Shown piece by piece: positions 2,708 to 36,270 of a DNA stretch of 39,163 nucleotides. Numbering within the stretch: position 1 is the first letter of the stretch; each line of letters begins with the position of its first letter. The stretch comes from Kayfunavirus PDP351P4. Under the pieces are notes generated by a model. The model saw nothing but the letters and a program-made list of their open reading frames with translations. It did not search any database and had not been told where the DNA came from. Position numbers and translations under genes: made by a program. The stretch lies in sequence record OZ035749.1; one strand, given 5' to 3'.

Positions 2708-2731
2708 ACTTAACTATCACTATAGGGAAGA
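2708..2731 (+). promoter_or_regulatory. phage RNAP promoter (phiOR-like position, after gene 19)
   Basis: TTAACTATCACTATAGGGAAG matches the 11-copy promoter family in this window. Confidence 0.65.
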
Positions 2732-2909
2732 CCCCCGGTTACTTATAGTATTACTGTAGTGAATATACATATGCAGACTTTATGCAAGACCTTAGGAGGC
2801 AGACTCCGAGTTCTTACCTAAGGCTTGCACCGATGGAAGGAGGTGATATTAATCATAATACCTCCAATACAGATAGTCACCGACCATAGATACAGGAGGT
2901 ATGTAGCAT

Positions 2910-3068
2910 ATGGAAAAGACCAAAGCTGTACTTAAAGCTCTGGCGACCAATCGAGCTACATACAGGTTTCTTGCTGCTGTTCTACTTGCTGCTGGCGTTA
3001 CTGCTGGAAGTCAGTGGGTCAGGTGGGTCGAGACCCTCGTATGTTCTCTGGTGTCTGAGTGTAATTAA
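2910..3068 (+). CDS. gene 19.5-like small membrane protein
   Basis: 52 aa; AGGAGG RBS 8 nt upstream; RATYRFLAAVLLAAG resembles the T7 gp19.5 RVTYRFLVV motif; last gene before the genome end in T7. Confidence 0.6.
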   Translation: MEKTKAVLKALATNRATYRFLAAVLLAAGVTAGSQWVRWVETLVCSLVSECN

Positions 3069-3101
3069 CGCAATCATGGTAACGATTCATGAGCGGAAGA
3101 C

Positions 3102-3145
3102 CTAAGGTCAGTACGTGGATAAAGACTCACTCTACTGACCTTAGC
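3102..3145. other. perfect 12-bp inverted repeat (CTAAGGTCAGTA ... TACTGACCTTAG) forming a hairpin with 20-nt loop in the genome-end region
   Basis: read directly; the two arms are exact reverse complements; function not assigned (terminator, RNA processing or packaging signal). Confidence 0.6.
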
Positions 3146-3497
3146 TACTGTAGTCAAGGACTTTAGGTAACACCTTAATAGAAGCTCACTTAGGGTCATC
3201 CTACTTACTGGTCTATCCTAGTGTCGCCTGACCTACGGTCCTTGACCTACAGTGGCTGTGGCCTACAGCAGTGACGATGAGTTTTGGACCAAAAGTTTGA
3301 GACCACATCTCACAGTTCAAGAACCTCAAGTCTCCCCATAGGCCCTCTTTCAGTCCAGACCAAAGGCCCTACCCCAGTCTATCATAAGGTTGGACCGATG
3401 GTCAATACTTAAGGTCGACGATAGGTCTAGGCTATGGCTGGAGGTCAGGACGATAGGTAGGGACTATTGGTCTTCTTTGAGTCTCTATCTGTATCAG

Positions 3498-3610
3498 ACC
3501 ATAGGTCACAACCATAGGTCACAACCATAAGTCATAACCTACATCTCACAACCATAAGTCATAACCTACAGCCTCAACCATAAGACACCTACAGTCTAAA
3601 CCTACAGTTA
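3498..3610. repeat. tandem array of about 8 degenerate 13-14 bp units (ACCATAGGTCACA / ACCATAAGTCATA / ACCTACAGCCTCA ...) in the genome-end/left-end region
   Basis: read directly; first two units are identical; related ACCTACRG units also at about 3231-3270. Confidence 0.7.
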
Positions 3611-3720
3611 ATAGACACAATGGCTATAGACTTAAGGTCTAAGACGTGTTAGTCAAAGACTATATCCTCTTACACCATGGGGCCGACGATGGCTCAATCA
3701 ATATTATTTCAACTTACCTA

Positions 3721-3750
3721 TTGACTATAGGTCTCGACTATGGCCTAATA
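3721..3750 (+). promoter_or_regulatory. candidate host sigma70 early promoter (weak)
   Basis: TTGACT at 3721 with a poor -10 (CCTAAT/CTAATA) about 17-18 bp downstream. Confidence 0.25.
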
Positions 3751-3860
3751 GCTTCCGTCAACACGACACGGCAACAACCGGATAGTGAAGACGCCGTGTC
3801 ATCCCGGTTAAGTAGACAGCCTGATAAGTCATACGAACAACAGGCAGATGACAGAAGTAG

Positions 3861-3895
3861 TTGACAAGATGTAAGACTTAACGTAGTATGATTCA
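3861..3895 (+). promoter_or_regulatory. candidate host sigma70 early promoter (A-type)
   Basis: TTGACA (3861-3866), 17-bp spacer, TAGTAT (3884-3889); upstream of gene 0.3 where T7 carries A1-A3. Confidence 0.5.
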
Positions 3896-3928
3896 CCAAG
3901 TAGTACAGCAAGCGAGTTAAGAAAGTGA

Positions 3929-3963
3929 TTGACAAGCTGGTTTGACTGTAGTAACTTATACGA
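3929..3963 (+). promoter_or_regulatory. candidate host sigma70 early promoter (A-type, weaker -10)
   Basis: TTGACA (3929-3934), 17-bp spacer, TAACTT (3952-3957). Confidence 0.35.
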
Positions 3964-4080
3964 CAAGCAAGATTAGTGAGTCCCAACACTGAAACGGGAT
4001 AGCACGGCGACGACAGCCAATGCGAATGCTCTTTAACAATTTGGATAAACTCTTAATGTGCGCCGATAGCGACTAACTAC

Positions 4081-4110
4081 AGGGTCTTTGAGTCTACATC
4101 TGAAGGCCCT
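4081..4110 (+). promoter_or_regulatory. RNase III-site-like hairpin variant upstream of gene 0.3 (R0.3 position)
   Basis: AGGGTC ... GGCCCT stem with wobble pairing, same architecture as the AAGGTCA/TGGCCTT elements. Confidence 0.35.
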
Positions 4111-4155
4111 GACTGATAGTCACTAACACATACTTAACTTTGAGAGGATATAACT

Positions 4156-4488
4156 ATGGAACGTAACGCTAACGCATACTATGACCTGCTGGCTGCAACC
4201 GTTGAAGCATTTAACGAGCGTATTCAGTGCGACGAAATAGCTGAAGGCGATGACTACTGCGATGCGCTGCATGAAGTCGTAGACGGTCAGGTTCCGCACT
4301 ATTACCACGAGATTTTCACGGTGATGGCTGCGGATGGTATCGACCACGAGTTCGAAGACTCTGGGCTGATGCCTGAGACCACGGACGTAACGCGTATACT
4401 ACAAGCTCGCATCTATGAGGCACTGTATAACGATGTGTCTAATAGCTCGGATGTAGTTTGGTTTGAGGCTGAAGAGGACTGCGAGTGA
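4156..4488 (+). CDS. ocr: Ocr, anti-restriction DNA-mimic protein (T7 gp0.3-like)
   Basis: 110 aa, acidic; [43 protein letters not shown] aligns closely with remembered T7 Ocr ([43 protein letters not shown]); first early gene. Confidence 0.9.
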   Translation: [110 protein letters not shown]

Positions 4489-4649
4489 TGGTAACTTATG
4501 GTCTCTACCAGCACCACGTAACCAACGCCCGGATTATGGTCAAGACCGGGCAGTTTAAGCATGACACGATGTTAGAGTTCCTGAAAGCGGTCTACGAGGG
4601 CCGCAAACGTATTCACGATAGTCTACACGCTGAGGATAAAACACAATGA
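4488..4649 (+). CDS. small early protein, unknown function (gene 0.4-0.6 region)
   Basis: 53-aa ORF whose ATG overlaps the ocr stop (TGATG); translationally coupled chain of small ORFs typical of T7 class I genes. Confidence 0.4.
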   Translation: MVTYGLYQHHVTNARIMVKTGQFKHDTMLEFLKAVYEGRKRIHDSLHAEDKTQ

Positions 4650-4795
4650 AACGATACGCTATACACATTCCGGGATGGTGTTACACAATGACTTGCTACG
4701 GATACAATGAGAGAGATGCGCGGTCTCGCTTCCGCGATCAGCAAGGATTCGGTAAACGTCTGCCTAATGGTACAGCTATCTGGGAGATTGACTAA
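4646..4795 (+). CDS. small early protein, unknown function
   Basis: 49-aa ORF with ATGA overlap to the previous ORF. Confidence 0.4.
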   Translation: MKRYAIHIPGWCYTMTCYGYNERDARSRFRDQQGFGKRLPNGTAIWEID

Positions 4796-4796
4796 C

Positions 4797-4922
4797 ATGT
4801 ACCAGATAACTTATAGCAGTGAACAGGAGTTCTACGATGGGTGCTACGAGATGATGAAGCGCGGGGCTTGCTACGTGGCTAATCACCATAGCCTGACCAT
4901 AACGCTGACAGGCGGGTACTGA
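4797..4922 (+). CDS. small early protein, unknown function
   Basis: 41-aa ORF (MYQITYSSEQEFYDGCYEMMKRGACY...) starting 1 nt after the previous stop; C-terminal part of track ORF 4707..4922. Confidence 0.35.
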   Translation: MYQITYSSEQEFYDGCYEMMKRGACYVANHHSLTITLTGGY

Positions 4923-4933
4923 GTGATAGACGA

Positions 4934-4959
4934 GAGGTCATCGACTGATAGGTGGCCTC
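4934..4959 (+). promoter_or_regulatory. RNase III processing-site-like hairpin (R0.5 position)
   Basis: GAGGTCA ... TGGCCTC stem, same architecture as the sites at 314, 9167 and 16194. Confidence 0.45.
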
Positions 4960-5078
4960 AAAGATTACCACTTGCATTAATAGGGGTTAACTATGAGTGT
5001 GGGATATTGGGTATGCCTAGCGCCAGTTATCTTGCTGATAGGGTATGGGCTATACGATTGTATTAAACGGAAATCACT

Positions 5079-5276
5079 ATGAGTCTTGCACTATTGATAG
5101 CAATAGGCTATGGACTTATCGCCTACATGCTGGTGAGAGACATCAACAAGGCACGTAAAGTCTACAAATTCAACTATGTACGTCTGGGCCGCTGGACTGT
5201 ACGTCAACCTAACGGACGATTCATGCGCAACTTAGCGAACGTCTGGGATATAGCAACACTTGGGAGCAAACTGTAA
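5079..5276 (+). CDS. small early membrane-like protein, unknown function
   Basis: 65 aa with hydrophobic N-terminus (LALLIAIGYGLIAYMLV) and basic C-terminal part. Confidence 0.45.
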   Translation: MSLALLIAIGYGLIAYMLVRDINKARKVYKFNYVRLGRWTVRQPNGRFMRNLANVWDIATLGSKL

Positions 5277-5602
5277 TGAGCAAGTCTTACGGGATTAATC
5301 TGGTACACTCTATGGACGCAGAAATGAACATGTTAAGCCTACTGGCTACCGGGTATCGTCACGGAACGTCAAGTCACTCCGCACGTCAACAGCAGGAGAG
5401 GGACCGGGTACTGCAAGCAAGACTCCGGGCTGAGGGCCATAAGTCCGAACTGATGTGTCTGGCGTATGGTGGACAACCAATCACCGAAGATGGTAAACTT
5501 CTGGTCTCAGGCTGGAAGGCGATAGACCAACGGTCAACCATCAAGCACACGACTCACGGTGACTTCAGTCATCTTCATGCTAACCCGCTGATATGCAAGT
5601 AA
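5276..5602 (+). CDS. early protein, unknown function (occupies the gene 0.7 position but much shorter than the T7 0.7 kinase)
   Basis: 108-aa ORF, start overlaps the previous stop; no kinase motifs recognised. Confidence 0.45.
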   Translation: MSKSYGINLVHSMDAEMNMLSLLATGYRHGTSSHSARQQQERDRVLQARLRAEGHKSELMCLAYGGQPITEDGKLLVSGWKAIDQRSTIKHTTHGDFSHLHANPLICK

Positions 5603-5617
5603 CTCTGACTTAACTAT

Positions 5618-5641
5618 CACTATAGGACTCAAGGTCTAAGA
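5618..5641 (+). promoter_or_regulatory. phage RNAP promoter immediately upstream of the RNAP gene
   Basis: TTAACTATCACTATAGGACTC, about 65 bp upstream of the gene 1 ATG; followed by a GACTCAAGGTC RNase III-like motif. Confidence 0.65.
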
Positions 5642-5699
5642 CTCCAAGTGAAAGACCAAAGAGACTTTAAGTGAAAGACTAATAACAAGGACTTTAAGT

Positions 5700-8381
5700 A
5701 TGAGCGTCATCTCTATTGATAAGCACGACTTCTCTGATGTGTCAAGCGCCATTGAGCCGTTTAACCTGCTGGCTGACCACTACGGGCAAGACCTTGCAGT
5801 CAAACAGCTTCAGCTTGAGCATGAGGCATACACTGAAGGCGAGCGACGTTTCATCAAGAACCTTGAGCGACAGACTGAGCGCGGGGAACTGGCAGACAAT
5901 CAGGTCGCCAAGCCTTTGATGCAGACTCTTGTACCTAAGATTGCGCAAGCCGTCAGGGAGTGGCATGAAGGTCCAGACGGGAAGCTGTCAACCTCTCGTC
6001 CTAGCGTAGCGTTCACCATGTTGAGCACTGAAGAGAAGGCCGTTAAAGATCGCTCTCTACGCATCTCCTGTGAGTCTGCTGCGGTTATCATACTGAAGGT
6101 CATCCTCTCCAAGCTGGTCAAGCCTGAAGGGATACCGATTACACCGATGGCCTCCGCGATAGGTCGCACACTTGAGGACGAAATCCGCTTCGGTCGCATC
6201 CGTGATAAGGAGAAGGAGCACTTCAAGAAGGCGATAGCTGAGAACCTGAACAAGCGTGCCGGGGCATCCTACAAGAAAGCCTACATGCAAGCGGTTGAGA
6301 CATCCATGCTGGAGCAGGGTCAACTGGAAGATGCGTGGGGGACTTGGAGTCCTACCGAGGCGGTACACGTTGGCATCAAGATGCTTGAGATTGTCATCCA
6401 GTCTACACAACTGGTCGAGCTTAAGCGGTACGGTGCTGGCAATGCAGCGGCTGACGTAGAGATGGTCCACCTGTCAGACTTCTGGGTAAAGAAGATGGCA
6501 CAACGAGGATTCAGCCTTGCGGGTATCGCTCCAGTATACCAACCTTGCGTCGTTCCACCTAAGCCGTGGACTGGTGTCGTAGGCGGGGGGTACTGGGCTA
6601 AAGGTCGCAGACCGCTACCACTGATTCGCTTAGGGTCTAAGTCTGCGGTGGCACGTTACGAAGACGTGTACATGCCTGAAGTCTATGACGCTGTGAATAT
6701 CATCCAGAATACACCTTGGAAAGTGAACAAGAAGGTTCTGGACGTGGTGAACATGGTCGAGAAGTTGAACAACACGCCTATTGATGACATCCCTCAGATG
6801 GAGCCACTGAAGCCTGAAGACTATGCGGGCGAGACTGAAGAGGAACTCAAGGCATGGAAGAAGGCTGCTGCTGGTATCTACCGCCGAGAGAAGGCCCGGC
6901 AGTCACGCAGATTGTCACTGAGCTTTATAGTTAACCAAGCGAACAAGTTCTCTCAGTTCAAAGCCATCTGGTTCCCGTATAACATGGACTGGCGCGGTCG
7001 CGTCTACGCTGTGCCGATGTTCAACCCTCAGGGTAACGACATGCAAAAGGGTCTCCTGACTCTGGCAGTCGGTAAGCCTATTGGTGCTGATGGTTTCAAA
7101 TGGCTGAAGGTCCACGGTGCAAACTGCGCGGGTATTGATAAAGTAACCTTCGAGGAGCGCATCAAGTGGGTGGAAGACAACCACGATAACATCATGGCTA
7201 CCGCTAAGGCACCGATGGATAGCATTGAGTGGTGGGGCAAGTTAGACTCTCCGTTCTGCTTCCTTGCGTTCTGCTTCGAGTATGCTGGCGTAATGCACCA
7301 CGGTTTGTCTTACTCCTGCTCGCTGCCGATAGCTTTCGATGGGTCCTGCTCTGGGATTCAGCACTTCAGCGCGATGCTTCGTGATCACATCGGTGGACAT
7401 GCAGTAAACCTGACGCCATCCGGTAAGGTCCAAGATATCTACCGCATCGTGTCTGACCGAATTGAGGAGGAGCTTAAAGTCCTTCTGGTTAACGGTACGG
7501 ATAACGAGATGGTGACTCACGAGGACAAGAAAACGGGTGAGATTACCGAGCGTCTCAAGCTGGGGACACGAGAGCTGGCCCGTCAGTGGCTGACCTACGG
7601 TATGTCTCGCAAGGTCACTAAGCGTTCAGTCATGACTCTGGCCTACGGGTCAAAAGAGTATGGCTTCGCAGACCAAGTGTACGAGGACATCGTGATGCCA
7701 GCGATTGACTCAGGGTCTGGCGCTATGTTCACTGAACCAAGCCAAGCGTCTCGCTTCATGGCTAAGATGATTTGGGAAGCTGTGAGCGTGACCGTAGTTG
7801 CTGCGGTTGACGCGATGAAGTGGCTTCAAGGTGCCGCCAAGCTGCTGGCTGCTGAAGTGAAGGACAAGAAGACTGGAGAAATCCTGAAGCCTTGCCTTCC
7901 GGTACACTGGGTAACACCTGATGGTTTCCCGGTCTGGCAGGAATACCGCAAGAAGGATACCACTCGTCTGAACCTGATGTTCTTAGGGTCATTCAACCTT
8001 CAGCCTACAGTCAACAAAGGCACGAAGAAAGAGCTGGACAAGCACAAGCAGGAGTCAGGCATTAGCCCGAACTTCGTCCACTCACAAGATGGAAGCCACC
8101 TACGCAAGACTGTAGTCCACACTCACCGCAAGTATGGCGTGATGTCATTCGCAGTGATTCACGATAGCTTCGGGACCATCCCGGCTGACGCTGAGTTCCT
8201 GTTCAAGGGAGTCCGTGAGACGATGGTCGAGACATACCGCGACAACGATGTGCTGCTGGACTTCTACGAGCAGTTTGAATACCAGCTTCATGAGAGCCAG
8301 CGCGACAAGTTGCCTGAGCTTCCGAAGAAAGGTAAACTGAATATAGAAGACATCTTGTCTTCAGACTTTGCATTCGCTTAA
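5700..8381 (+). CDS. single-subunit DNA-directed RNA polymerase (T7 gp1-like)
   Basis: 893 aa (T7 RNAP 883 aa); gene 1 position; C-terminus ends FAFA as in T7 RNAP; read as T7 RNAP-like along its length. Confidence 0.96.
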   Translation: MSVISIDKHDFSDVSSAIEPFNLLADHYGQDLAVKQLQLEHEAYTEGERRFIKNLERQTERGELADNQVAKPLMQTLVPKIAQAVREWHEGPDGKLSTSRPSVAFTMLSTEEKAVKDRSLRISCESAAVIILKVILSKLVKPEGIPITPMASAIGRTLEDEIRFGRIRDKEKEHFKKAIAENLNKRAGASYKKAYMQAVETSMLEQGQLEDAWGTWSPTEAVHVGIKMLEIVIQSTQLVELKRYGAGNAAADVEMVHLSDFWVKKMAQRGFSLAGIAPVYQPCVVPPKPWTGVVGGGYWAKGRRPLPLIRLGSKSAVARYEDVYMPEVYDAVNIIQNTPWKVNKKVLDVVNMVEKLNNTPIDDIPQMEPLKPEDYAGETEEELKAWKKAAAGIYRREKARQSRRLSLSFIVNQANKFSQFKAIWFPYNMDWRGRVYAVPMFNPQGNDMQKGLLTLAVGKPIGADGFKWLKVHGANCAGIDKVTFEERIKWVEDNHDNIMATAKAPMDSIEWWGKLDSPFCFLAFCFEYAGVMHHGLSYSCSLPIAFDGSCSGIQHFSAMLRDHIGGHAVNLTPSGKVQDIYRIVSDRIEEELKVLLVNGTDNEMVTHEDKKTGEITERLKLGTRELARQWLTYGMSRKVTKRSVMTLAYGSKEYGFADQVYEDIVMPAIDSGSGAMFTEPSQASRFMAKMIWEAVSVTVVAAVDAMKWLQGAAKLLAAEVKDKKTGEILKPCLPVHWVTPDGFPVWQEYRKKDTTRLNLMFLGSFNLQPTVNKGTKKELDKHKQESGISPNFVHSQDGSHLRKTVVHTHRKYGVMSFAVIHDSFGTIPADAEFLFKGVRETMVETYRDNDVLLDFYEQFEYQLHESQRDKLPELPKKGKLNIEDILSSDFAFA

Positions 8382-8393
8382 TAGGAGAGAGTT

Positions 8394-8672: not shown

Positions 8673-9143
8673 ATGTTCGGTAAGTCAAAACTTAAAGCAC
8701 AAATCAAAGAGTTGAACATGAAGGTGGCATACTTGGAGCGAGCCATAGAGGCCCGGGACAAGGACAATGAGCGGCTGAAGGATAAGCTCGCTGAATCCGA
8801 GCGTAAGCGCCTAACGCCACCAGCTGCTGTAACTGTCAAGCGTATGGTTGGCATCAAGTTCAAGGCACTGTTCGACGGGATGTACCAACCGACTGAGTTC
8901 AAGACTGGACCGGGTAACTGCGGTAAGAACGTTAAGCACTTCACAACATCGAAGACTGAGCGCACCATTACCATTCACCAGCACCACGTAGACGGGTCTC
9001 AGAAAGACTTTGAGTATCGACTTAGCGACATAGACGGTCGCATCCAGTATGACTACGAGATGATTAAGGTCTATGGCGAGGAGGCCGAACGTGAGCGAGA
9101 GCTTCAGGCAGCCATGCGGATAAGGCCGAAAATCCTCTTCTAA
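8673..9143 (+). CDS. hypothetical protein with N-terminal coiled-coil-like region (insertion between gene 1 and gene 1.1)
   Basis: 156-aa ORF; charged heptad-like N-terminus (KAQIKELNMKVAYLERAIEARDKDNERLKDKLAESERKR); no T7 counterpart. Confidence 0.5.
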   Translation: MFGKSKLKAQIKELNMKVAYLERAIEARDKDNERLKDKLAESERKRLTPPAAVTVKRMVGIKFKALFDGMYQPTEFKTGPGNCGKNVKHFTTSKTERTITIHQHHVDGSQKDFEYRLSDIDGRIQYDYEMIKVYGEEAERERELQAAMRIRPKILF

Positions 9144-9162
9144 ACTATCACTATAGGATTAG
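9139..9162 (+). promoter_or_regulatory. phage RNAP promoter (phi1.1 position)
   Basis: CTAAACTATCACTATAGGATT. Confidence 0.7.
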
Positions 9163-9166
9163 ACTC

Positions 9167-9193
9167 AAGGTCATGACTCAAAGTCGTGGCCTT
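9167..9193 (+). promoter_or_regulatory. RNase III processing-site-like hairpin (R1.1 position)
   Basis: AAGGTCA ... TGGCCTT stem with 13-nt loop, immediately downstream of the promoter. Confidence 0.5.
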
Positions 9194-10752: not shown

Positions 10753-10928
10753 TCACACAACTTTATGTCGACACGGCAAGCGGTCAACTCTACGCAGTAG
10801 TAAACGGTGAGCTGTGGTATCGCCAACGCAAGAAGTGGGCCAAGTCCTACTACGACGAAGAGACAATATCAACCATGAGTCATCGCTACCGAAAGGCTGC
10901 TAAGGTGAACAACTTTAAGATGCGTTAA
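10749..10928 (+). CDS. small hypothetical protein (gene 1.4/1.5 position)
   Basis: 59 aa from the ATG overlapping the ligase stop (ATGA); N-terminal part of track ORF 10710..10928 is rejected as overlap. Confidence 0.4.
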   Translation: MITQLYVDTASGQLYAVVNGELWYRQRKKWAKSYYDEETISTMSHRYRKAAKVNNFKMR

Positions 10929-10985: not shown

Positions 10986-11009
10986 CCTAAACTATCACTA
11001 TAGGACAAC
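10986..11009 (+). promoter_or_regulatory. phage RNAP promoter (phi1.5/1.6 position)
   Basis: CCTAAACTATCACTATAGGACAA. Confidence 0.7.
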
Positions 11010-11698: not shown

Positions 11699-11857
11699 AT
11701 GACTGAGGTTGAGAAGAAATACATCGTGGAGCTTGAGGGCCGCATTCAGTCCTTCGAGGTTCCGGTGTACGCAAAGTCTCTTGAAGAGGCTACCCTGAAG
11801 TCCCAAGAGTATGAGGACGCTGGGTTTGTGGTCGGTAGGATTCGTCCTGAGACCTAA
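11699..11857 (+). CDS. host RNA polymerase inhibitor (T7 gp2-like)
   Basis: 52-aa ORF (below track cutoff); [14 protein letters not shown]...[10 protein letters not shown] matches remembered T7 gp2 (SFEVPIYAETLDEA...AGFEVTRVRP); directly upstream of the SSB gene. Confidence 0.75.
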
Positions 11858-11876
11858 ACTATCACTGTAGGACAGA
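11853..11876 (+). promoter_or_regulatory. phage RNAP promoter variant (phi2.5 position)
   Basis: CTAAACTATCACTGTAGGACAG; one substitution at -3 (CACTGTAGG). Confidence 0.55.
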
Positions 11877-13991: not shown

Positions 13992-14207
13992 ATGATTAAA
14001 CTTATCGAATTTCTTGGTCGTCTGGTGGTGCGTGGTTATCGTCGTGCTGCGGTTATGGAACGAAAGGTAGCAGAGAAGGCTGCTGACGGTGCGGCTGACG
14101 CTGCTGCTCTGGCTGACAAGCTGACCATCGCGTCACTGGAAGCTGGCATGAAGGCACGTCAAGCTGACACCAAAGCTGACCAGTTGGCTCAGTTCTTCAA
14201 AGCCTAA
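13992..14207 (+). CDS. hypothetical small protein (gene 3.8 position)
   Basis: 71-aa ORF with AAGGAG RBS; Ala/Lys-rich, no HNH motif recognised. Confidence 0.45.
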   Translation: MIKLIEFLGRLVVRGYRRAAVMERKVAEKAADGAADAAALADKLTIASLEAGMKARQADTKADQLAQFFKA

Positions 14208-14226
14208 ACTATCACCTTAGGGATGG
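14203..14226 (+). promoter_or_regulatory. phage RNAP promoter variant upstream of gene 4
   Basis: CTAAACTATCACCTTAGGGATG; two substitutions relative to the family consensus, so possibly weak. Confidence 0.4.
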
Positions 14227-19998: not shown

Positions 19999-20124
19999 TA
20001 TACTGGGCCGGACTTCTGGCCCTTTACTGCATGTATAAGTGGTTCGGGTCGAACAACCGTCCTAAACACTGAGTCTAACTGATAGTCATATCCTATCAAT
20101 CCAACAGTCATCCATAGGTGAAAC

Positions 20125-20148
20125 ACTAAACTATCACTATAGGGACTT
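20125..20148 (+). promoter_or_regulatory. phage RNAP promoter (phi6.5 position)
   Basis: CACTAAACTATCACTATAGGGACT. Confidence 0.7.
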
Positions 20149-20208
20149 TAGGACCTAAGATATGACTATAAGATAGACTTTAGTCTTAACTTAAAGAGGA
20201 GATTCAAG

Positions 20209-20724: not shown

Positions 20725-21129
20725 ATGCTACCATATCTCAACTCACGCGAAGGTCGCCACATGTGCGCTTGTCGCCTCTGGGAAGACGGGCAGTCTAACT
20801 TCAAGTCATTCGAGGACTTCAAGGCTCATACTTACCGTATGGCTGACGAGTTCGACGGTGAAGAGTACACAATCTATGATGTCTCAGGTCAACCAGTAGC
20901 GTATCTCTACATGCTGGCTACCGCATCTTGGCACCGACCGACTCCCGGTCTTGACCTTTCAATCATCGCTATTCGTCGTGACTCGCAGTCCTCCCGCAAG
21001 GTTCTTGAGACTGTCAGGCATATCATATACGAAGAGTGCAAGCGTTGGGGTCTTGGCTGGTATTCTCGTGTCAAGCATGTTTCTGGGTCGGTAGACATCG
21101 TAACAACTAAGGAGATTAACCGTGGGTAA
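20725..21129 (+). CDS. gene 7-position protein (host range / virion protein in T7)
   Basis: 134 aa (T7 gp7 is 133); positional assignment. Confidence 0.5.
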   Translation: MLPYLNSREGRHMCACRLWEDGQSNFKSFEDFKAHTYRMADEFDGEEYTIYDVSGQPVAYLYMLATASWHRPTPGLDLSIIAIRRDSQSSRKVLETVRHIIYEECKRWGLGWYSRVKHVSGSVDIVTTKEINRG

Positions 21130-21381: not shown

Positions 21382-22950
21382 ATGGCTGAACGTGAAGGGT
21401 TCGCTGCTGAAGGAGCCAAAGCGGTCTATGACCGACTGAAGAACGGTAGACAGCCATATGAGACACGCGCTCAGAACTGTGCTGCTGTCACTATCCCGTC
21501 ACTGTTTCCTAAGGAGTCCGACAACTCGTCTACTGAGTACACCACTCCGTGGCAGTCTGTAGGTGCTCGCTGCTTGAACAACTTGGCTGCAAAGCTGATG
21601 TTGGCGTTATTCCCTCAGTCACCGTGGATGCGACTGACAGTCTCCGAATATGAGGCAAAGACCTTGAGTCAGGACTCAGAGGCGGCTGCTCGTGTTGACG
21701 AAGGGCTGGCTATGGTAGAGCGTGTGCTGATGGCCTACATGGAGACTAACAGTTTCCGTGTCCCATTGTTCGAGGCTCTGAAGCAGCTTATCGTCTCTGG
21801 TAACTGTCTGCTCTACATTCCAGAGCCTGAACAGGGAACCTACAGTCCCATGCGAATGTACCGCTTAGTGTCTTACGTTGTTCAACGTGATGCTTTCGGT
21901 AATATCTTGCAGATTGTGACTCTCGACAAGGTAGCGTTTAGTGCTCTACCGGAAGACGTGAAGTCTCAACTCAACGCAGACGACTATGAGCCTGACACCG
22001 AGCTGGAAGTGTATACGCACATCTACCGTCAGGACGACGAGTATCTACGCTACGAGGAAGTGGAAGGCATTGAGGTAGCAGGGACCGATGGTTCCTACCC
22101 GCTGACTGCATGTCCATACATCCCGGTACGAATGGTTCGACTGGATGGTGAAGACTACGGTCGTTCTTACTGCGAGGAGTATCTGGGCGACCTCAACTCG
22201 CTGGAGACGATTACAGAAGCTATCACCAAAATGGCTAAGGTAGCCTCCAAGGTGGTGGGCCTCGTTAACCCGAACGGTATCACGCAACCTCGACGTCTGA
22301 ACAAGGCGGCTACAGGTGAGTTCGTGGCTGGTCGCGTTGAGGACATCAACTTCCTGCAACTGACGAAAGGTCAGGACTTTACGATTGCCAAGTCAGTGGC
22401 TGACGCTATCGAGCAACGTTTAGGCTGGGCCTTCCTTCTTAATAGTGCTGTTCAGCGTAATGCCGAGCGGGTCACTGCTGAAGAGATTCGTTATGTTGCT
22501 GGCGAACTGGAGGCGACCTTAGGTGGCGTGTACTCAGTACAGTCACAAGAGCTTCAGTTACCTATCGTCCGCGTGTTGATGAACCAGCTTCAGTCCGCTG
22601 GCATGATCCCTGACCTTCCGAAAGAAGCGGTAGAGCCTACGGTCTCCACTGGTCTTGAAGCGTTAGGTCGTGGTCAAGACTTAGAGAAGCTGACTCAGGC
22701 AGTCAACATGATGACCGGGCTACAGCCTCTGCAACAGGACCCAGACATTAACTTGCCGACCCTGAAGCTTCGACTGCTGAATGCCTTAGGTATTGACACC
22801 GCTGGCCTGCTGCTGACTCAGGACGAGAAGTTGCAACGTATGGCTGAACAATCCGCTCAAGGAGCTGTGGTCAACGGTGCGTCTGCTGCTGGTGCTAACA
22901 TGGGCGCTGCTGTAGGTCAGGGAGCTGGTGAGGACATGGCTCAAGCCTAA
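21382..22950 (+). CDS. head-to-tail connector / portal protein (T7 gp8-like)
   Basis: 522 aa (T7 gp8 is 536); between gene 7.3 and the scaffold gene. Confidence 0.85.
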   Translation: MAEREGFAAEGAKAVYDRLKNGRQPYETRAQNCAAVTIPSLFPKESDNSSTEYTTPWQSVGARCLNNLAAKLMLALFPQSPWMRLTVSEYEAKTLSQDSEAAARVDEGLAMVERVLMAYMETNSFRVPLFEALKQLIVSGNCLLYIPEPEQGTYSPMRMYRLVSYVVQRDAFGNILQIVTLDKVAFSALPEDVKSQLNADDYEPDTELEVYTHIYRQDDEYLRYEEVEGIEVAGTDGSYPLTACPYIPVRMVRLDGEDYGRSYCEEYLGDLNSLETITEAITKMAKVASKVVGLVNPNGITQPRRLNKAATGEFVAGRVEDINFLQLTKGQDFTIAKSVADAIEQRLGWAFLLNSAVQRNAERVTAEEIRYVAGELEATLGGVYSVQSQELQLPIVRVLMNQLQSAGMIPDLPKEAVEPTVSTGLEALGRGQDLEKLTQAVNMMTGLQPLQQDPDINLPTLKLRLLNALGIDTAGLLLTQDEKLQRMAEQSAQGAVVNGASAAGANMGAAVGQGAGEDMAQA

Positions 22951-22969
22951 ACTATCACTATAGGAACAA
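22946..22969 (+). promoter_or_regulatory. phage RNAP promoter (phi9 position)
   Basis: CCTAAACTATCACTATAGGAACA. Confidence 0.7.
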
Positions 22970-23925: not shown

Positions 23926-23949
23926 ACTAAACTATCACTATAGGGAGAC
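23926..23949 (+). promoter_or_regulatory. phage RNAP promoter (phi10 position, strongest consensus with GGGAGA start)
   Basis: ACTAAACTATCACTATAGGGAGAC immediately upstream of the major capsid gene. Confidence 0.8.
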
Positions 23950-25231: not shown

Positions 25232-25270
25232 AACCCCTTGGGTGCCTTCGGGTGCTTGAGGGGTTTTTTG
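25232..25270 (+). terminator. T-phi-like terminator for the phage RNAP
   Basis: AACCCCTTGGGTGCCTTCGGGTGCTTGAGGGGTTTTTTG: GC-rich G-U-containing hairpin plus T6 tract, closely resembling T7 T-phi and located just after gene 10. Confidence 0.8.
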
Positions 25271-25388
25271 CTTAAGTAGGAGGAACTATGTTCCTTATTT
25301 ACACATGGTTAGTACTATTCGTCTTATTCTGGGCGTACCTGCTGCCCAGCTCACCGTCTAGCCCCTATGACCGTTAAGGAGTAAACCT

Positions 25389-25955
25389 ATGTCTCAATAC
25401 ATTCCACTGAATGCTAACGATGACTTAGATGCCATCAACGATATGTTAGCTGCTATCGGTGAACCAGCAGTCCTACAGCTTGACGAAGGCAATGCTGATG
25501 TCTCGAATGCTCAACGCATCCTGCATCGTGTCAATCGTCAGGTCCAAGCTAAAGGCTGGAACTTTAACATCAACGAAGCTGCTGTCCTGACACCTGATGT
25601 CCAAGACAACAGGATTCGATTCCTACCGTCATACCTTCGTGTAATGACTGCTGGGGCCACCAGCTATTATAGCAACATGGGTGGATACCTGTACGACCTG
25701 TCCACTCAGTCAACCACTTTCACCGACCCTATAACAGTAGAGCTTGTTGAGATGAAACCATTCTCTGAGATGCCAGTGGTCTTCAGGGACTACATCGTTA
25801 CCAAGGCTAGCCGTGAGTTCAACGCTAAGTTCTTCGGTAGCCCAGAGTCTGAACTGTACCTTCGTGAGCAGGAAGCAGAACTCTATCAGCAGGTCATGGA
25901 ATATGAGATGGACACTGGTCGCTACAACATGATGTCCGACATCGGGAGGGACTAA
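25389..25955 (+). CDS. tail tubular protein A / gatekeeper (T7 gp11-like)
   Basis: 188 aa (T7 gp11 is 196); first gene after T-phi. Confidence 0.8.
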   Translation: MSQYIPLNANDDLDAINDMLAAIGEPAVLQLDEGNADVSNAQRILHRVNRQVQAKGWNFNINEAAVLTPDVQDNRIRFLPSYLRVMTAGATSYYSNMGGYLYDLSTQSTTFTDPITVELVEMKPFSEMPVVFRDYIVTKASREFNAKFFGSPESELYLREQEAELYQQVMEYEMDTGRYNMMSDIGRD

Positions 25956-26182
25956 TGGCAGCGCATAATCTGAAGATTCACCGCCAGCACTTTGGTCCGG
26001 TACAACTAGGTCTAAAGACAGCAGAGCTGAGACTTAACGACCGGGACTTTAAGGTTGGCGACTGGCTTATTCTGAATGAGTGGGACAACGGGTATACTGG
26101 ACAACAGGTAGCACGTAAGGTTGTCCACATTGCTGACGTTGGTGACATCGCTGAGGGATACGTCCTAATGAGTATGATTTAA
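25955..26182 (+). CDS. DUF3850/ASCH-like (PUA-fold) small protein inserted between genes 11 and 12
   Basis: 75 aa; H.FGPV..G.KTAELRLNDRDFKVGDWLILNEWD.G.YTG fits the DUF3850 pattern as I remember it; ATGG overlap with the gene 11 stop. Confidence 0.55.
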   Translation: MAAHNLKIHRQHFGPVQLGLKTAELRLNDRDFKVGDWLILNEWDNGYTGQQVARKVVHIADVGDIAEGYVLMSMI

Positions 26183-28573: not shown

Positions 28574-28597
28574 CCTTAACTATCACTATAGGGACTA
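28574..28597 (+). promoter_or_regulatory. phage RNAP promoter (phi13 position)
   Basis: CCTTAACTATCACTATAGGGACTA. Confidence 0.7.
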
Positions 28598-32359: not shown

Positions 32360-32363
32360 CATA

Positions 32364-35300
32364 ATGGCGACTCGTGGTATTCGCAATAACAATCCGGGGA
32401 ACATCCGTGTAAGTAAGGACCAATGGGAAGGAATGACTGGAGATGATGGCGCATTCGTCACCTTCGATAGTCCAGAGTCTGGCGTCCGAGCTTTAGGTAA
32501 AAACCTGCTGTCCTACGGTCGCCAAGGTTATGACTCCATCGAGAAGATTATCAACCGATGGGCACCTCCTAATGAGAACGACACTCAGGCTTATATTGAC
32601 TCAGTGGTGGCTGCGACTGGTATTCCAGCTACCCAGAGTCTAGACCTCTCGAATCCGGACACCCTGTCTTCTCTGGCGCAAGCTATCAGCTTCCATGAGA
32701 CAGGCTCCCGGTACAACCCTGAAGTCTACCAACAGGGAGTCGCAAGAGCACTTAACGGTATCAGCCCAAAGACTCCACCAGTAAGCGCTAACGTATTTGA
32801 CGCACTCACGGAAGGACTCAAGGCTAAACCTAAAGTATCTCTGGGTGAGAACCTTCCGACCGCTGCTGGTCTGAACATTGAGGGTCAAGCACCTGAAGCT
32901 CCCAACGAATCGTTCGGTGAGATGTTCTATAAGGCTACTGGAGAGACCATGCAGGAGCGAGAGGACCGCTCTACGTGGTTCGGTTTCGGTGCGGCTACAG
33001 AAGCTGAAGTGAAGAACTCTATGGTCGGCGTGGCTATCCGAGCTGGCCAGACTGAGGATTCACTGGATGTCATTGGCGATGTGTTCAACCCGACCAGATG
33101 GAACAACCATAAGTGGTCTCGTGAGGAGCTGGACCAGATTCGTAACGCTGGGGTGCTGCCTCAGTATTACGGAGTCATTACTGGTGGTTCTCCTCAGAAC
33201 CTGACCGAGCTTATTAACTTGGCGCTTGAGAACCAGAAGTTGGACCAAGAGAAGGCCAAGTCCGGGACTGGTGCTCAGTTAGCTGCTGGTGTGATTGGAA
33301 CTGGTGTGGACCCTCTGACCTACGTTCCTATCGCTGGACAGGTGGGTAAAGGAGGTAAACTGGTCAACAAGATGTTCACCGTGGCTGCTCAATCTGGAGC
33401 ACTGGCTGGTGTGTCAGAGATGGCCCGTACCTCAGTGGCTGGTGGTGATGCTCATGTGGCTGAAGCTATCCTTGGTGGTGCTCTCTTCGGTGGTGGCATG
33501 ACTGCTATCGCTGATGGGCTAGGCAGAGCCTTAGGTCGCAACACTAATGAGTTTGCTGGCCCAGCTACACGTCTGGAAGCTCGTGAGACCGCTCGTAACG
33601 TTGATGGTCAGGACCTGTCTCGTCTCCCTATTCAGGAAGGTGAGCAGACCTTTAGTCATCAAGGCGTTAAGTTCGCAGACGTTCCTAACGAGCCGGGCAG
33701 TGTACGACTGGAAGATGGTTCAATCCTAATTGGTGAGAACCCTCTGAACCCTAAGACACGTCAAGTCTTTGACGAAGTGATTGAGCCTGAACGTGCCGCT
33801 GCTGGTGTGAACCTTGGTGGGCTGACTGAGATTGGTCTGAAGCTGCTTCGGTCTGAGAACCTTGAGATTCGTGGGGTAGCTGCTGACTTAGTGCGTTCAC
33901 CGACTGGTATGCAGTCAGGGGCCTCAGGTAAAATAGGGACCACTGCGTCAGACGTATTCGAGAGACTTCGTGCTGTGGACCACCGGTTCTACAACGACAT
34001 CGACGATGCGGTTACTGAGGCGCTCAAGGACCCATACTTCCAGACAGCATTCTGGCGAGACTCTGGAGCATTCCGTCAGGACATCTACCAGCGCGTGTCT
34101 ATGGCTATCGAAGATGGTAGCGGAAACCTGAAGGCTGAACTGACTCCGGGAGAACTGAAAGTCTATGACCTGCTGAAGAACCAGTTCGACGCCAAGCGTG
34201 AGATGATGGAGAATCCAGCTATGTTTGGTCGCCCAGACGCTCAGTCTATCTTTCCGGGTAGTCGCTTCAAGGGAACCTACGTCCCGCATGTGTATAGCAA
34301 ACAGATGAAGGAGCTGTACATTAAGGAGCTTGGAAGTCCAGAGGCGTTGCAGGAGGCCATCAAGAAGTCATGGTTGACCAGCTATGCGTCTCGACCTGAA
34401 GTCAAGAAACGCGTGGACGAGGCACTTTTAGAGGCTGACCCTACGTTGACTCCAGAGGGACTTGCTGCTGCGGTCGATAAATACGCCAACGATAAGGCTT
34501 ACGGTATCTCTCACACCGAGCAGTTCGAACGTTCATCCGTAATGGAAGAGAACATCAACGGTCTGGTGGGTCTGGAGAACAATAGCTTCCTTGAGGCTCG
34601 TAACCTGTTCGATAGCGATATGTCAATCGTCCTGCCTAACGGTCAGACCTTCAGTGTCAACAACCTGCGTGAGTGGGACATGGACAAGATTGTCCCGGCC
34701 TACAACCGTCGAGTTAATGGCGACATTGCTATCATGGCTGGTACAGGAAAAACCACGAAGGAAATGAAGGACTTGGTTGAGACCATGATGAACAAGGCTG
34801 GTGATGATGGCAAGTTGAAAGGTGAGGTCTCGACCTTACGTGATACCCTGAAGATTCTCACTGGTCGTGCTCGACGTGATGGTGCTGACGATGCTGCCTT
34901 CGCTACCGTGATGCGCACAATGACAGACCTATCGTTCTTCGCTAAGAATGCCTACATGGGTGTTCAGAACTTAACGGAGATTGGTGGTATGCTGGCTCGT
35001 GGTAACGTTCGTGCGCTGCTACATGGAGTCCCGATGTTCCGTGACCTAGCCTTCCGTAACAAGAAGGTAGGGGCCTCAGAGATTAAGGACCTGCACAATG
35101 TTATATTTGGTAAGGAACTGGATGACTCAATCCGTCCGTCTAAACAGGATGTCATTGACCGTCTGAGATCTTACAGTGACCTCGGCCGTGGTACAGCCAC
35201 AGCTCTGGGGACTGCCAAGTATTACACTGGTGAACTTGCAGTACGCTCTCCGTTCACTAAAGTCCTCAACGGTACGACCAACTACCTGTTAGATGCTGGA

Positions 35301-36251
35301 CGTCAGGGATTCCTGTCTGACATCGTGGAGCATAGTCTGACTGGCAGTAAGCGTCGGTTCGATGACCGCTGGCTGAAGACCGCTGGTATCTCTGACGAGC
35401 AGTGGAAGGGCATTAAGTCCCTAATCCGTGAGTCAGTGACTCGTGGGCCAGACGGGAAGTACACCATCAAGGATAAGAAGGCGTTCAGTCAGGACCCAAG
35501 GGCTATGGACCTGTGGCGTATGGGTGACACCATCGCTGACGAAACGTTACTCCGGCCCCACAAGCTGTCAAACATGGACGCCAAGGCTTATGGTCCTCTT
35601 GCTAAGACTGTCCTTCAGTTTAAGAACTTCGTCATCAAGTCCATCAATGGGCGAACCATGCGAACCTTCTACAACGCCACGAAGAACAACCGAGCGATGG
35701 ACGCTGCCTTGTCCACTGTGATGTCTATGGGTCTTGCTGGTATCTACTACATGGCTCAGGCGCATGTCAAGGCTTATGCTATGCAGGATGGTCGAGACCG
35801 TGACTACCTTAAGCAAGCTCTGGACCCGACGATGATTGGATATGCAGCCCTATCACGTAGTTCACATCTGGGTGGCCCACTTGGGGTAGCTAACATTCTG
35901 GGTGGCATCGCTGGGTATGAGGACACTAAGATGCTCCGTTCGTCTATCCTACCTCGTTCGCCTACAGAGAAGCCTGAACGTGCCATCGCGTATGGTGCAG
36001 CTACAAGTGACCCTGTGATGAATGTTGTTGGTAACTTCTTGGAGCAGGTTCCAGCTTTCGGATATGCTGCTAACGTTGGCGCTTCGGCTTACAACTTGGC
36101 TGGCTACCTCAAGGCTGATACTCGTGTCAACGAGCGTGACTACATGACCGGGATGTATAATACGTTCCGTGAACTGGTTCCGAACGACCCGATTACTCAG
36201 AAGTTGCTACTGGGAACGTTTGAGGAGCAAGGTATCCACATCAAGGACTAA
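32364..36251 (+). CDS. internal virion protein C/D (T7 gp16-like)
   Basis: about 1295 aa from the ATG preceded by AAGGAG; RLEARETARN, LVRSPTGMQSGASGK, ENPAMFG, KGTYVPHVY, NSFLEARNLFDSD, NGDIAIM, TGKTTKE, ILTGRARR, DPTMI.YAALSRSS and VPNDP.TQ all align with remembered T7 gp16; the N-terminal roughly 130 aa do not resemble the T7 transglycosylase domain. Confidence 0.9.
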   Translation: MATRGIRNNNPGNIRVSKDQWEGMTGDDGAFVTFDSPESGVRALGKNLLSYGRQGYDSIEKIINRWAPPNENDTQAYIDSVVAATGIPATQSLDLSNPDTLSSLAQAISFHETGSRYNPEVYQQGVARALNGISPKTPPVSANVFDALTEGLKAKPKVSLGENLPTAAGLNIEGQAPEAPNESFGEMFYKATGETMQEREDRSTWFGFGAATEAEVKNSMVGVAIRAGQTEDSLDVIGDVFNPTRWNNHKWSREELDQIRNAGVLPQYYGVITGGSPQNLTELINLALENQKLDQEKAKSGTGAQLAAGVIGTGVDPLTYVPIAGQVGKGGKLVNKMFTVAAQSGALAGVSEMARTSVAGGDAHVAEAILGGALFGGGMTAIADGLGRALGRNTNEFAGPATRLEARETARNVDGQDLSRLPIQEGEQTFSHQGVKFADVPNEPGSVRLEDGSILIGENPLNPKTRQVFDEVIEPERAAAGVNLGGLTEIGLKLLRSENLEIRGVAADLVRSPTGMQSGASGKIGTTASDVFERLRAVDHRFYNDIDDAVTEALKDPYFQTAFWRDSGAFRQDIYQRVSMAIEDGSGNLKAELTPGELKVYDLLKNQFDAKREMMENPAMFGRPDAQSIFPGSRFKGTYVPHVYSKQMKELYIKELGSPEALQEAIKKSWLTSYASRPEVKKRVDEALLEADPTLTPEGLAAAVDKYANDKAYGISHTEQFERSSVMEENINGLVGLENNSFLEARNLFDSDMSIVLPNGQTFSVNNLREWDMDKIVPAYNRRVNGDIAIMAGTGKTTKEMKDLVETMMNKAGDDGKLKGEVSTLRDTLKILTGRARRDGADDAAFATVMRTMTDLSFFAKNAYMGVQNLTEIGGMLARGNVRALLHGVPMFRDLAFRNKKVGASEIKDLHNVIFGKELDDSIRPSKQDVIDRLRSYSDLGRGTATALGTAKYYTGELAVRSPFTKVLNGTTNYLLDAGRQGFLSDIVEHSLTGSKRRFDDRWLKTAGISDEQWKGIKSLIRESVTRGPDGKYTIKDKKAFSQDPRAMDLWRMGDTIADETLLRPHKLSNMDAKAYGPLAKTVLQFKNFVIKSINGRTMRTFYNATKNNRAMDAALSTVMSMGLAGIYYMAQAHVKAYAMQDGRDRDYLKQALDPTMIGYAALSRSSHLGGPLGVANILGGIAGYEDTKMLRSSILPRSPTEKPERAIAYGAATSDPVMNVVGNFLEQVPAFGYAANVGASAYNLAGYLKADTRVNERDYMTGMYNTFRELVPNDPITQKLLLGTFEEQGIHIKD

Positions 36252-36270
36252 ACTATCACTATAGGAAACG
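36247..36270 (+). promoter_or_regulatory. phage RNAP promoter (phi17 position)
   Basis: ACTAAACTATCACTATAGGAAACG. Confidence 0.7.

What the first reader, a model, noticed from the sequence alone, without database searches (positions are those of the whole stretch)
2708..36270. Eleven-copy promoter family with a specificity region distinct from T7 and T3
The motif TAAACTATCACTATAGG(G/A)A recurs at 2708, 5618, 9139, 10986, 11853, 14203, 20125, 22946, 23926, 28574 and 36247, always on the + strand and at positions syntenic with T7 phi promoters. The -7 to +2 core (CACTATAGG) is T7-like, but the -11 to -8 region read by the RNAP specificity loop is CTAT here, versus GACT in T7 and CCCT in T3, with an A-rich -14 to -12. 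That implies an RNAP/promoter pair with its own specificity, potentially orthogonal to T7 and T3 systems. Most copies start GGA rather than GGG; only phi10 has the full GGGAGA.
Basis: partly seen in the sequence, partly recalled or inferred. Interest (0 to 1): 0.5.

Follow-up and report, generated by a model that had tools for sequence, protein, structure and literature searches.

The report
K1F-type phage RNA polymerase promoters
The eleven repeats are the promoters that a K1F-like (Kayfunavirus) coliphage uses with its own T7-type RNA polymerase; the pair does differ from T7 and T3, but it has already been described, tested in vitro and used in synthetic biology, so the finding is correct but ordinary.

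Summary
Exactly 11 sites match AACTATCACTATAGG with at most 2 mismatches, all on the + strand (0.08 expected by chance). A weight-matrix scan separates them cleanly, at 31-37 bits against 12 bits for the next best site.

The window is a circularly permuted genome of a Kayfunavirus (K1F-like T7 relative). Phage K1F carries the same 11 sites, one-to-one, with near-identical flanks. The window's RNA polymerase (5700-8381) is 98.8% identical to K1F's and 64% to T7's. Its specificity loop is identical to K1F's and differs from T7 by Q754S, R756N and I761V.

This pair is already known:
- Temme et al. 2012 grafted the K1F loop into T7 RNAP and showed that the variant, with its ACTAT promoter, is orthogonal to T7, T3 and N4.
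- Takatsuki et al. 2025 purified the native RNAP of Kayfunavirus Ro45lw (94.6% identical) and defined the minimal promoter ACTTAACTATCACTATAGGGA, starting at G. That 21-mer occurs exactly at window 2708-2728.

One correction: ten sites are syntenic with T7 promoters. The eleventh lies 75 nt upstream of the RNAP gene, has no T7 counterpart, and is conserved across the genus.

The parts
2708..2730 (+). Promoter phiOR equivalent (-17..+6; +1 = 2725), downstream of gene 19 (terminase large subunit, ends 2613) and about 580 nt before the terminal repeat
   Evidence: 35.5 bits. Bases 2708-2728 are an exact copy of the experimentally defined Ro45lw minimal promoter ACTTAACTATCACTATAGGGA. The K1F counterpart is at 38856.
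5608..5630 (+). Promoter directly upstream of gene 1 (+1 = 5625, 75 nt before the RNAP ATG at 5700); it has no T7 counterpart and is probably an autogenous promoter
   Evidence: 34.2 bits. Conserved at the same distance in K1F, Vec13 and Ro45lw, and in 10 of 10 distinct Kayfunavirus-type loci. In L124 it has switched to CCCT together with the RNAP loop.
5700..8381 (+). Gene 1: single-subunit DNA-dependent RNA polymerase, 893 aa
   Evidence: Pfam RNA_pol (2e-106) and RPOL_N. Full-length match to T7 RNAP structures such as 1cez and 1aro. 98.8% identical to K1F gp1, 64% to T7 and 94.6% to Ro45lw. D537, D812, K631, Y639 and H784 are conserved.
7944..8039 (+). Codons for the specificity loop (window aa 749-780 = T7 aa 739-770): YRKKDTTRLNLMFLGSFNLQPTVNKGTKKELD
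   Evidence: Identical to K1F. Within T7 residues 744-761 it differs from T7 by Q754S, R756N and I761V; R746, N748 and Q758 are retained.
9139..9161 (+). Promoter, phi1.1/1.3 equivalent (+1 = 9156), upstream of small ORFs and the ligase gene (9679)
   Evidence: 32.9 bits; K1F counterpart at 5556.
10986..11008 (+). Promoter, phi1.5/1.6 equivalent (+1 = 11003), upstream of gene 1.6 (11032)
   Evidence: 36.6 bits; K1F counterpart at 7187.
11853..11875 (+). Promoter, phi2.5 equivalent (+1 = 11870), a variant with G at -3 (CACTGTAGG)
   Evidence: 33.2 bits. The same variant occurs at the same place in K1F, Vec13, Ro45lw and L124.
14203..14225 (+). Promoter upstream of gene 4 primase/helicase (+1 = 14220), a variant with C at -4 and T at -3 (CACCTTAGG)
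   Evidence: 30.9 bits, the weakest member. K1F has the same variant at 10870.
20125..20147 (+). Promoter, phi6.5 equivalent (+1 = 20142)
   Evidence: 36.1 bits; K1F counterpart at 17181.
22946..22968 (+). Promoter, phi9 equivalent (+1 = 22963), at the 3' end of gene 8
   Evidence: 37.4 bits; K1F counterpart at 20002.
23926..23948 (+). Promoter, phi10 equivalent (+1 = 23943), the only site with the initially transcribed sequence GGGAGA; upstream of the major capsid gene (24053)
   Evidence: 35.3 bits; K1F counterpart at 21001.
25245..25272 (+). Tphi-like intrinsic terminator downstream of gene 10 (hairpin followed by GTTTTTTGCT)
   Evidence: This is a consensus scan only; function is inferred from the T7-like position.
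28574..28596 (+). Promoter, phi13 equivalent (+1 = 28591)
   Evidence: 35.1 bits; K1F counterpart at 25325.
36247..36269 (+). Promoter, phi17 equivalent (+1 = 36264), upstream of the tailspike gene (36315)
   Evidence: 36.7 bits; K1F counterpart at 32601.

Best explanation
The 11 repeats are the class II and class III promoters of a Kayfunavirus (K1F-like member of Studiervirinae). They are recognised by the phage's own T7-type single-subunit RNA polymerase, encoded at 5700-8381.

Proposed sequence of events, by analogy with T7 (inferred, not shown here):
1. Host RNAP transcribes the early region, including gene 1.
2. The phage RNAP binds the 23-bp promoters.
3. Its beta-hairpin specificity loop reads -12..-8 (ACTAT) in the major groove, and an N-terminal loop reads the A/T-rich -17..-13.
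4. The -4..-1 TATA is melted and transcription starts at the first G of GG(G/A).

Specificity relative to T7 comes mainly from R756N, matching the change at -9 from C to A, in a loop that also carries Q754S and I761V. Shown here: the sequences, their statistics, synteny, the identity of the loop with K1F, and natural covariation in a relative. Shown in the literature for near-identical parts: in vitro initiation and the minimal promoter (Ro45lw RNAP), and orthogonality of the K1F loop/promoter pair to T7, T3 and N4 in a T7 scaffold.
For: - Eleven + strand sites against 0.08 expected, with a bimodal weight-matrix distribution.
- All sites lie upstream of gene clusters, in the same order as T7 promoters.
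- The window is 93-95% identical to many Kayfunavirus genomes.
- K1F has the same 11 sites one-to-one, including the two weakened variants.
- The RNAP has the Pfam RNA_pol and RPOL_N domains and matches T7 RNAP structures over its full length. Catalytic residues are conserved.
- The specificity loop is identical to K1F.
- PMC11880802 Table 2 lists the K1F graft as 754S/756N/761V with cognate ACTAT, which are exactly the residues and bases seen here.
- PMC3458549 reports 17-fold induction for T7(K1F) and orthogonality to non-cognate promoters.
- PMC12272871 reports that purified Ro45lw RNAP transcribes from ACTTAACTATCACTATAGGGA with +1 G. That sequence is present exactly at 2708-2728, and Ro45lw RNAP is 94.6% identical with the same contact residues.
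- Natural covariation: in Enterobacter phage vB_Ecl_MII_004 (RNAP 88% identical) the promoters read AACCCTCACTATAGG and the loop carries N748D, S754T and N756R.
Against: No transcription data exist for this particular phage. The initiation sites, the relative strengths and the class II/III assignment are inferred. PMC11880802 notes that the grafted K1F/T3/N4 set shows only limited orthogonality, and orthogonality of the native enzyme to T7 and T3 promoters was not found in the papers read. The original K1F genome paper (Scholl & Merril 2005) could not be read.
Confidence: 0.97

Rival explanations
1. The RNAP/promoter pair in this window has a new specificity, not yet characterised and distinct from all known T7-like classes. 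This is the implicit claim of the first reader.
For: -11..-8 CTAT differs from T7 GACT and T3 CCCT. No T7-type promoter occurs in the window and no K1F-type site occurs in T7.
Against: The loop is identical to K1F and the promoter set is identical to K1F. The K1F class has already been engineered and tested, and a native congeneric enzyme has been characterised on an identical promoter. About 205 deposited phage genomes encode an RNAP at least 90% identical.
Confidence: 0.01
2. The repeats are not promoters. They would be another kind of dispersed cis element, such as RNA processing sites, packaging or replication signals, or binding sites for some other protein.
For: No direct transcript mapping exists for this genome. 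Some sites overlap the 3' ends of coding sequences.
Against: The -7..+2 core is the T7 core CACTATAGG. Orientation and placement copy the T7 promoter map. An identical sequence drives transcription by a 94.6%-identical RNAP in vitro. The sites switch together with the RNAP specificity loop in a relative. The 5' UTR downstream of site 5625 shows no unusual structure (z = -0.21), and there are no Rfam matches.
Confidence: 0.01
3. The sites are functional promoters but are not specific: T7 or T3 RNAP would recognise them nearly as well, so the pair is not meaningfully orthogonal.
For: N748, R746 and Q758 are retained and the -7..+2 core is identical to T7. PMC11880802 rates the orthogonality of the grafted set as low (value 8, against 245 for their own design) and says non-cognate pairs kept relatively high activity. 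PMC12272871 attributes background signal to cross-reactivity of T7 RNAP with the tested promoters.
Against: PMC3458549 reports each of T7, T7(T3), T7(K1F) and T7(N4) as highly orthogonal. Three of the five bases at -12..-8 differ from T7. R756, the contact to -9 by established structural knowledge (Cheetham et al. 1999, as cited in PMC11880802), is replaced.
Confidence: 0.15

Closest known systems
Escherichia phage K1F (Kayfunavirus K1F, NC_007456): its promoter set and gp1 RNA polymerase
   Same: The same 11 promoter sites in the same order, with near-identical flanks and the same two weakened variants. The RNAP is 98.8% identical, with identical specificity loop, AT-rich recognition loop and intercalating hairpin. 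Gene order is the same.
   Different: Eleven amino-acid substitutions in the RNAP, all outside the promoter-contact loops. The K1F phi1.6-equivalent site has G at -12 (AGCTAT) where the window has A. The tailspike, some early genes and the DNA polymerase architecture differ. Genome-wide DNA identity to the nearest deposited relatives is about 93-95%.
Escherichia phage Ro45lw RNAP and its minimal promoter ACTTAACTATCACTATAGGGA (Takatsuki et al. 2025, PMC12272871)
   Same: The exact 21-nt minimal promoter occurs at window 2708-2728. The RNAP is 94.6% identical, with the same residues at T7 positions 746, 748, 754, 756 and 758. +1 = G was determined experimentally.
   Different: 48 substitutions, including M750L (T7 numbering) in the loop. 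In Ro45lw the site upstream of gene 1 has A at -2.
T7(K1F) / P_K1F engineered orthogonal pair (Temme et al. 2012, PMC3458549; K1FR sigma fragment, Segall-Shapiro et al. 2014, PMC4299498)
   Same: The same loop substitutions (754S, 756N, 761V) and the same -12..-8 ACTAT.
   Different: The engineered system is a T7 scaffold with T7 flanking promoter sequence. The native promoter here has CTWAA at -16..-12 instead of T7's AATAC, and the native enzyme has a different AT-rich recognition loop.
T7 phi promoters and T7 RNAP; T3 promoters and T3 RNAP
   Same: 23-bp architecture, the -7..+2 core CACTATAGG, G start, the promoter map (10 of 11 positions), and the enzyme fold and catalytic residues.
   Different: -11..-8 is CTAT rather than GACT (T7) or CCCT (T3). 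The loop has N756 instead of R756. There are 11 promoters rather than the 17 annotated in T7, no phiOL, and an extra promoter upstream of gene 1.

Membership tests
K1F-class (Kayfunavirus) single-subunit RNAP promoters | Conserved ~23-bp element with the T7-like core CACTATAGG at -7..+2 and ACTAT at -12..-8 | tested here: met
   ACTATCAC (-12..-5), TA (-2/-1) and GG (+1/+2) are invariant in 11 of 11 sites; only -4 (1 site) and -3 (2 sites) vary. ACTAT is the cognate element listed for the K1F loop.
K1F-class (Kayfunavirus) single-subunit RNAP promoters | Cognate RNAP with the K1F-type specificity loop encoded in the same genome | tested here: met
   The loop YRKKDTTRLNLMFLGSFNLQPTVNKGTKKELD is identical to K1F; the RNAP is 98.8% identical.
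K1F-class (Kayfunavirus) single-subunit RNAP promoters | Sites co-oriented with the genes and located at the K1F promoter positions | tested here: met
   One-to-one correspondence of the 11 sites with K1F.
K1F-class (Kayfunavirus) single-subunit RNAP promoters | Transcription by the cognate RNAP initiates at the predicted +1 G | not testable with these tools
   Shown in vitro for Ro45lw RNAP on an identical 21-mer (PMC12272871); not measured for this phage.
K1F-class (Kayfunavirus) single-subunit RNAP promoters | Discrimination against T7 and T3 promoters (orthogonality) | not testable with these tools
   Reported for the loop graft in a T7 scaffold (PMC3458549), and rated as limited by PMC11880802. 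Data for the native enzyme were not found.
T7-like single-subunit RNA polymerase (Pfam RNA_pol PF00940 / RPOL_N PF14700) | Domain architecture and catalytic residues D537, D812, K631, Y639, H784 (T7 numbering) | tested here: met
T7-specificity promoter class | -11..-8 GACT, read by N748/R756/Q758 | tested here: not met
   -11..-8 is CTAT and residue 756 is N. The best T7-promoter-like match in the window has 2 mismatches and lies at an unrelated site.
T3-specificity promoter class | -11..-8 CCCT with D748 | tested here: not met
   CTAT with N748. The related phage L124 does meet this definition: CCCT, D748 and R756.
Genus Kayfunavirus (Studiervirinae) | High nucleotide identity and synteny with K1F-like genomes | tested here: met
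   93-95% identity over 90-93% of the first 25 kb to many Kayfunavirus records. All K1F core genes are found in order.

The most novel reading that the evidence does not exclude
The most novel reading not excluded concerns the promoter 75 nt upstream of the RNAP gene (5608-5630), which has no T7 counterpart. It would be a functional, selected autogenous promoter that gives Kayfunavirus RNAP a natural positive-feedback loop, and possibly also serves as the first entry point for RNAP-driven genome internalisation in place of T7's phiOL. It is conserved across the genus. In a relative whose RNAP loop changed to the T3 type, this site changed to CCCT along with all the other promoters, which argues for selection on its promoter function.
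Probability: 0.3. Interest if true: 0.3.

Novelty: already known. Interest (0 to 1): 0.07.

Why it matters
It matters little beyond annotation. The result correctly marks the 11 phage promoters, the RNAP and its specificity loop in a new Kayfunavirus genome. K1F-type RNAP/promoter pairs are already part of the synthetic-biology toolkit. The native enzyme of a congeneric phage has been characterised as an in vitro transcription reagent with more homogeneous RNA ends than T7. Two modest points could be of use. First, the conserved promoter in front of the RNAP gene suggests natural autoregulation. Second, a close relative has switched the same scaffold to T3-like CCCT specificity through N748D and N756R, with S754T alongside. 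That is a compact natural example of the covariation rules at residues 748 and 756 described by DCA studies.

Tried and rejected
- Reading the original K1F genome paper by DOI and by a guessed PMC id, and Chen & Schneider 2005 (PMC1275584): none is held. Whether those papers list the gene-1-upstream promoter therefore remains unknown.
- The supplement of Temme et al. for the exact P_K1F sequence: not held. Table 2 of PMC11880802 was used instead.
- A 13-mer search with 3 mismatches is uninformative, giving 17 hits against 9.2 expected. The 15-mer with at most 2 mismatches and a weight matrix were used instead.
- A search for extra, weaker family members such as a phiOL equivalent found none. 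The next best site scores 12.4 bits, at 20154-20176.
- The 5' UTR of gene 1, folded to look for an RNase III-type hairpin, shows no signal (z = -0.21).
- An Rfam scan of the whole window gave no matches.
- The sigma-70 promoter and terminator scans are at or below shuffle expectation overall. Only the Tphi-like hairpin after gene 10 is positionally meaningful.
- Four IMG/VR loci containing the exact 15-mer belong to a different promoter class, with consensus ATTAGGTAGCACTATAGG and a different loop. They carry the 15-mer only once, so not every database hit to the 15-mer is a K1F-class phage.
- Two literature checks in phage-genome papers (PMC4925675, PMC4837284) gave nothing relevant.

Full report
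**Observation**

A search for AACTATCACTATAGG allowing two mismatches finds 11 sites, all on the + strand. Dinucleotide-preserving shuffles give a mean of 0.08, and none of 100 reaches 11. The sites start at 2712, 5612, 9143, 10990, 11857, 14207, 20129, 22950, 23930, 28578 and 36251, which puts +1 at 2725, 5625, 9156, 11003, 11870, 14220, 20142, 22963, 23943, 28591 and 36264.

The exception is 5618, which should be 5608.

A weight matrix from -17..+6 carries about 32 bits. It scores the 11 sites at 30.9-37.4 bits, and the next best position on either strand scores 12.4 bits. The family therefore has exactly 11 members.

The quoted 19-mer is exact at only four sites. Position -14 is A in 8 sites and T in 3. 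Two sites carry core variants (CACTGTAGG at 11857, CACCTTAGG at 14207). Position +4 is A in 7 of 11. C at -16 and T at -15 are invariant, so the real consensus is CTWAACTATCACTATAGGR. Six sites start GGA and five start GGG; only the phi10 site reads GGGAGA.

**What the window is**

The first 25 kb match dozens of Kayfunavirus genomes at 93-95% identity over 90-93% of the query. Mapping K1F proteins onto the window recovers the whole T7-like gene order, circularly permuted:
- The window begins in the holin/terminase region: gene 18 at 30-293 and gene 19 ending at 2613.
- It crosses the physical genome end. The terminal repeat lies at about 3308-3486.
- It continues through the early region to gene 1 (RNAP, 5700-8381) and on to gene 17 (36315-38804) and the start of gene 17.5.

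With that map, ten sites correspond to T7 phiOR, phi1.1/1.3, phi1.5/1.6, phi2.5, phi3.8/4, phi6.5, phi9, phi10, phi13 and phi17. The eleventh (5608-5630) lies 75 nt upstream of the RNAP start codon, where T7 has no phage promoter. A Tphi-like hairpin followed by a T-run sits after gene 10, at 25245-25272.

**Identity with the K1F system**

Phage K1F (NC_007456) carries the same 11 sites, one-to-one, with near-identical flanks. It has the same two weakened variants at the phi2.5 and gene-4 positions.

The window RNAP has the Pfam RNA_pol and RPOL_N domains. It aligns over its full length to T7 RNAP structures and keeps D537, D812, K631, Y639 and H784. It is 98.8% identical to K1F gp1 and 64% identical to T7 RNAP. 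Its specificity loop, AT-rich recognition loop and intercalating hairpin are all identical to K1F.

Within T7 residues 744-761 the loop differs from T7 by Q754S, R756N and I761V. R746, N748 and Q758 are retained.

**Prior characterisation**

- Temme et al. 2012 (PMC3458549) mined phage RNAP loops and predicted promoters, and grafted the K1F loop into T7 RNAP. They reported 17-fold induction on the cognate promoter and orthogonality to T7, T3 and N4 promoters.
- Table 2 of PMC11880802 records this variant as 754S/756N/761V with cognate ACTAT at -12..-8. These are exactly the residues and bases found here. The same paper rates the orthogonality of that grafted set as modest. It also restates the structural basis: R746, N748, R756 and Q758 make the base-specific contacts.
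- Segall-Shapiro et al. 2014 (PMC4299498) reused the K1F loop as a 'sigma fragment'.
- Takatsuki et al. 2025 (PMC12272871) purified the native RNAP of Kayfunavirus Ro45lw. They mapped +1 to G and trimmed the promoter to ACTTAACTATCACTATAGGGA. That 21-mer occurs exactly at window 2708-2728, and Ro45lw RNAP is 94.6% identical to the window enzyme with the same contact residues.
- A 2026 genome report gives CTWAACTATCACTATAGG as the repeat consensus of another Kayfunavirus (PMC13298934).
- The group is large. About 205 deposited phage genomes encode an RNAP at least 90% identical.

**Mechanism**

By homology with T7 (established knowledge, Cheetham et al. 1999 as cited), the beta-hairpin loop reads -12..-8 in the major groove. 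Loss of the arginine at position 756, which contacts the G of the -9 C:G pair in T7, matches the change at -9 from C to A.

A natural control supports this. Enterobacter phage vB_Ecl_MII_004 has an RNAP 88% identical overall and 93% identical in the C-terminal half. Its promoters read AACCCTCACTATAGG, and its loop carries N748D, S754T and N756R, which is the T3-type solution. That record appears to have frameshifted gene calls, so it should be used with care.

The temporal roles of the promoters (class II versus class III) and their relative strengths are inferred from position and from the conserved weakened variants. They have not been measured.

**Side observation**

The site in front of gene 1 is conserved at the same distance in K1F, Vec13 and Ro45lw, and in 10 of 10 distinct Kayfunavirus-type loci examined. 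In vB_Ecl_MII_004 it has switched to CCCT together with the other promoters. This argues that it is a selected promoter, and so that the RNAP gene is probably under positive autoregulation. Its 5' UTR shows no unusual structure. I could not check whether the original K1F paper lists it.

**Verdict**

Novelty: already known. Interest: low.

Noticed in passing
window 5608-5630 (+1 5625), upstream of gene 1 at 5700: A phage promoter lies directly in front of the phage RNAP gene, with no T7 counterpart. It is conserved in 10 of 10 Kayfunavirus-type loci, and it has co-switched to CCCT in a relative whose RNAP loop is T3-like. This suggests natural positive autoregulation of the RNAP.
   Followed up: partly
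L124 (Enterobacter phage vB_Ecl_MII_004, PQ039555) 2741, 7387, 8323; RNAP 2829-5492: A close relative (RNAP 88% identical) uses T3-like promoters (AACCCTCACTATAGG) and has N748D, S754T and N756R in the specificity loop. This is a natural specificity switch within the lineage. In that record the RNAP is annotated as three fragments, probably because of sequencing frameshifts.
   Followed up: partly
window 1-30 and 39002-39163; 3308-3486: The window is a circular permutation of the phage genome. The holin gene 17.5 is split across the window ends. The physical left end and the ~179-bp direct terminal repeat map to about 3308-3486.
   Followed up: yes
window 36315-38804: Gene 17 (829 aa) shares only its N-terminal 223 aa (T7 tail-fibre adaptor) with the K1F endosialidase. 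The rest is a Tail_spike_N domain plus a right-handed beta-helix, implying a different capsule or O-antigen receptor from K1F.
   Followed up: partly
window 25955-26182: A 75-aa DUF3850/ASCH-domain ORF is inserted between tail genes 11 and 12. K1F annotates no gene at this position.
   Followed up: no
window 8673-9143: A 156-aa ORF with a phage T3 gene 1.05 domain (PF25755) lies just upstream of the phi1.1-equivalent promoter. The K1F annotation has no counterpart.
   Followed up: no
window 16248-18419: The DNA polymerase gene is uninterrupted (723 aa). In K1F it is annotated as a two-piece join around an HNH endonuclease gene.
   Followed up: no
window 20154-20176: A degenerate promoter-like half-site (CCTAAGATATGACTATAAGATAG, 12.4 bits) lies 29 nt downstream of the phi6.5 start. 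It is far below the real sites and is probably non-functional.
   Followed up: no
window 5625-5640 and 9156-9175: The transcripts initiated at the gene-1 and phi1.1 promoters share the motif GACTCAAGGTC near their 5' ends. Its significance is unknown.
   Followed up: no
L031, L017, L045, L087 (IMG/VR): Phages of another promoter class (consensus ATTAGGTAGCACTATAGG; loop RLKLTFLGQANVFMT) each carry one isolated site, ATAAAGAYAACTATCACTATAGGTCT, next to a canonical promoter. It contains the K1F-type 15-mer.
   Followed up: no
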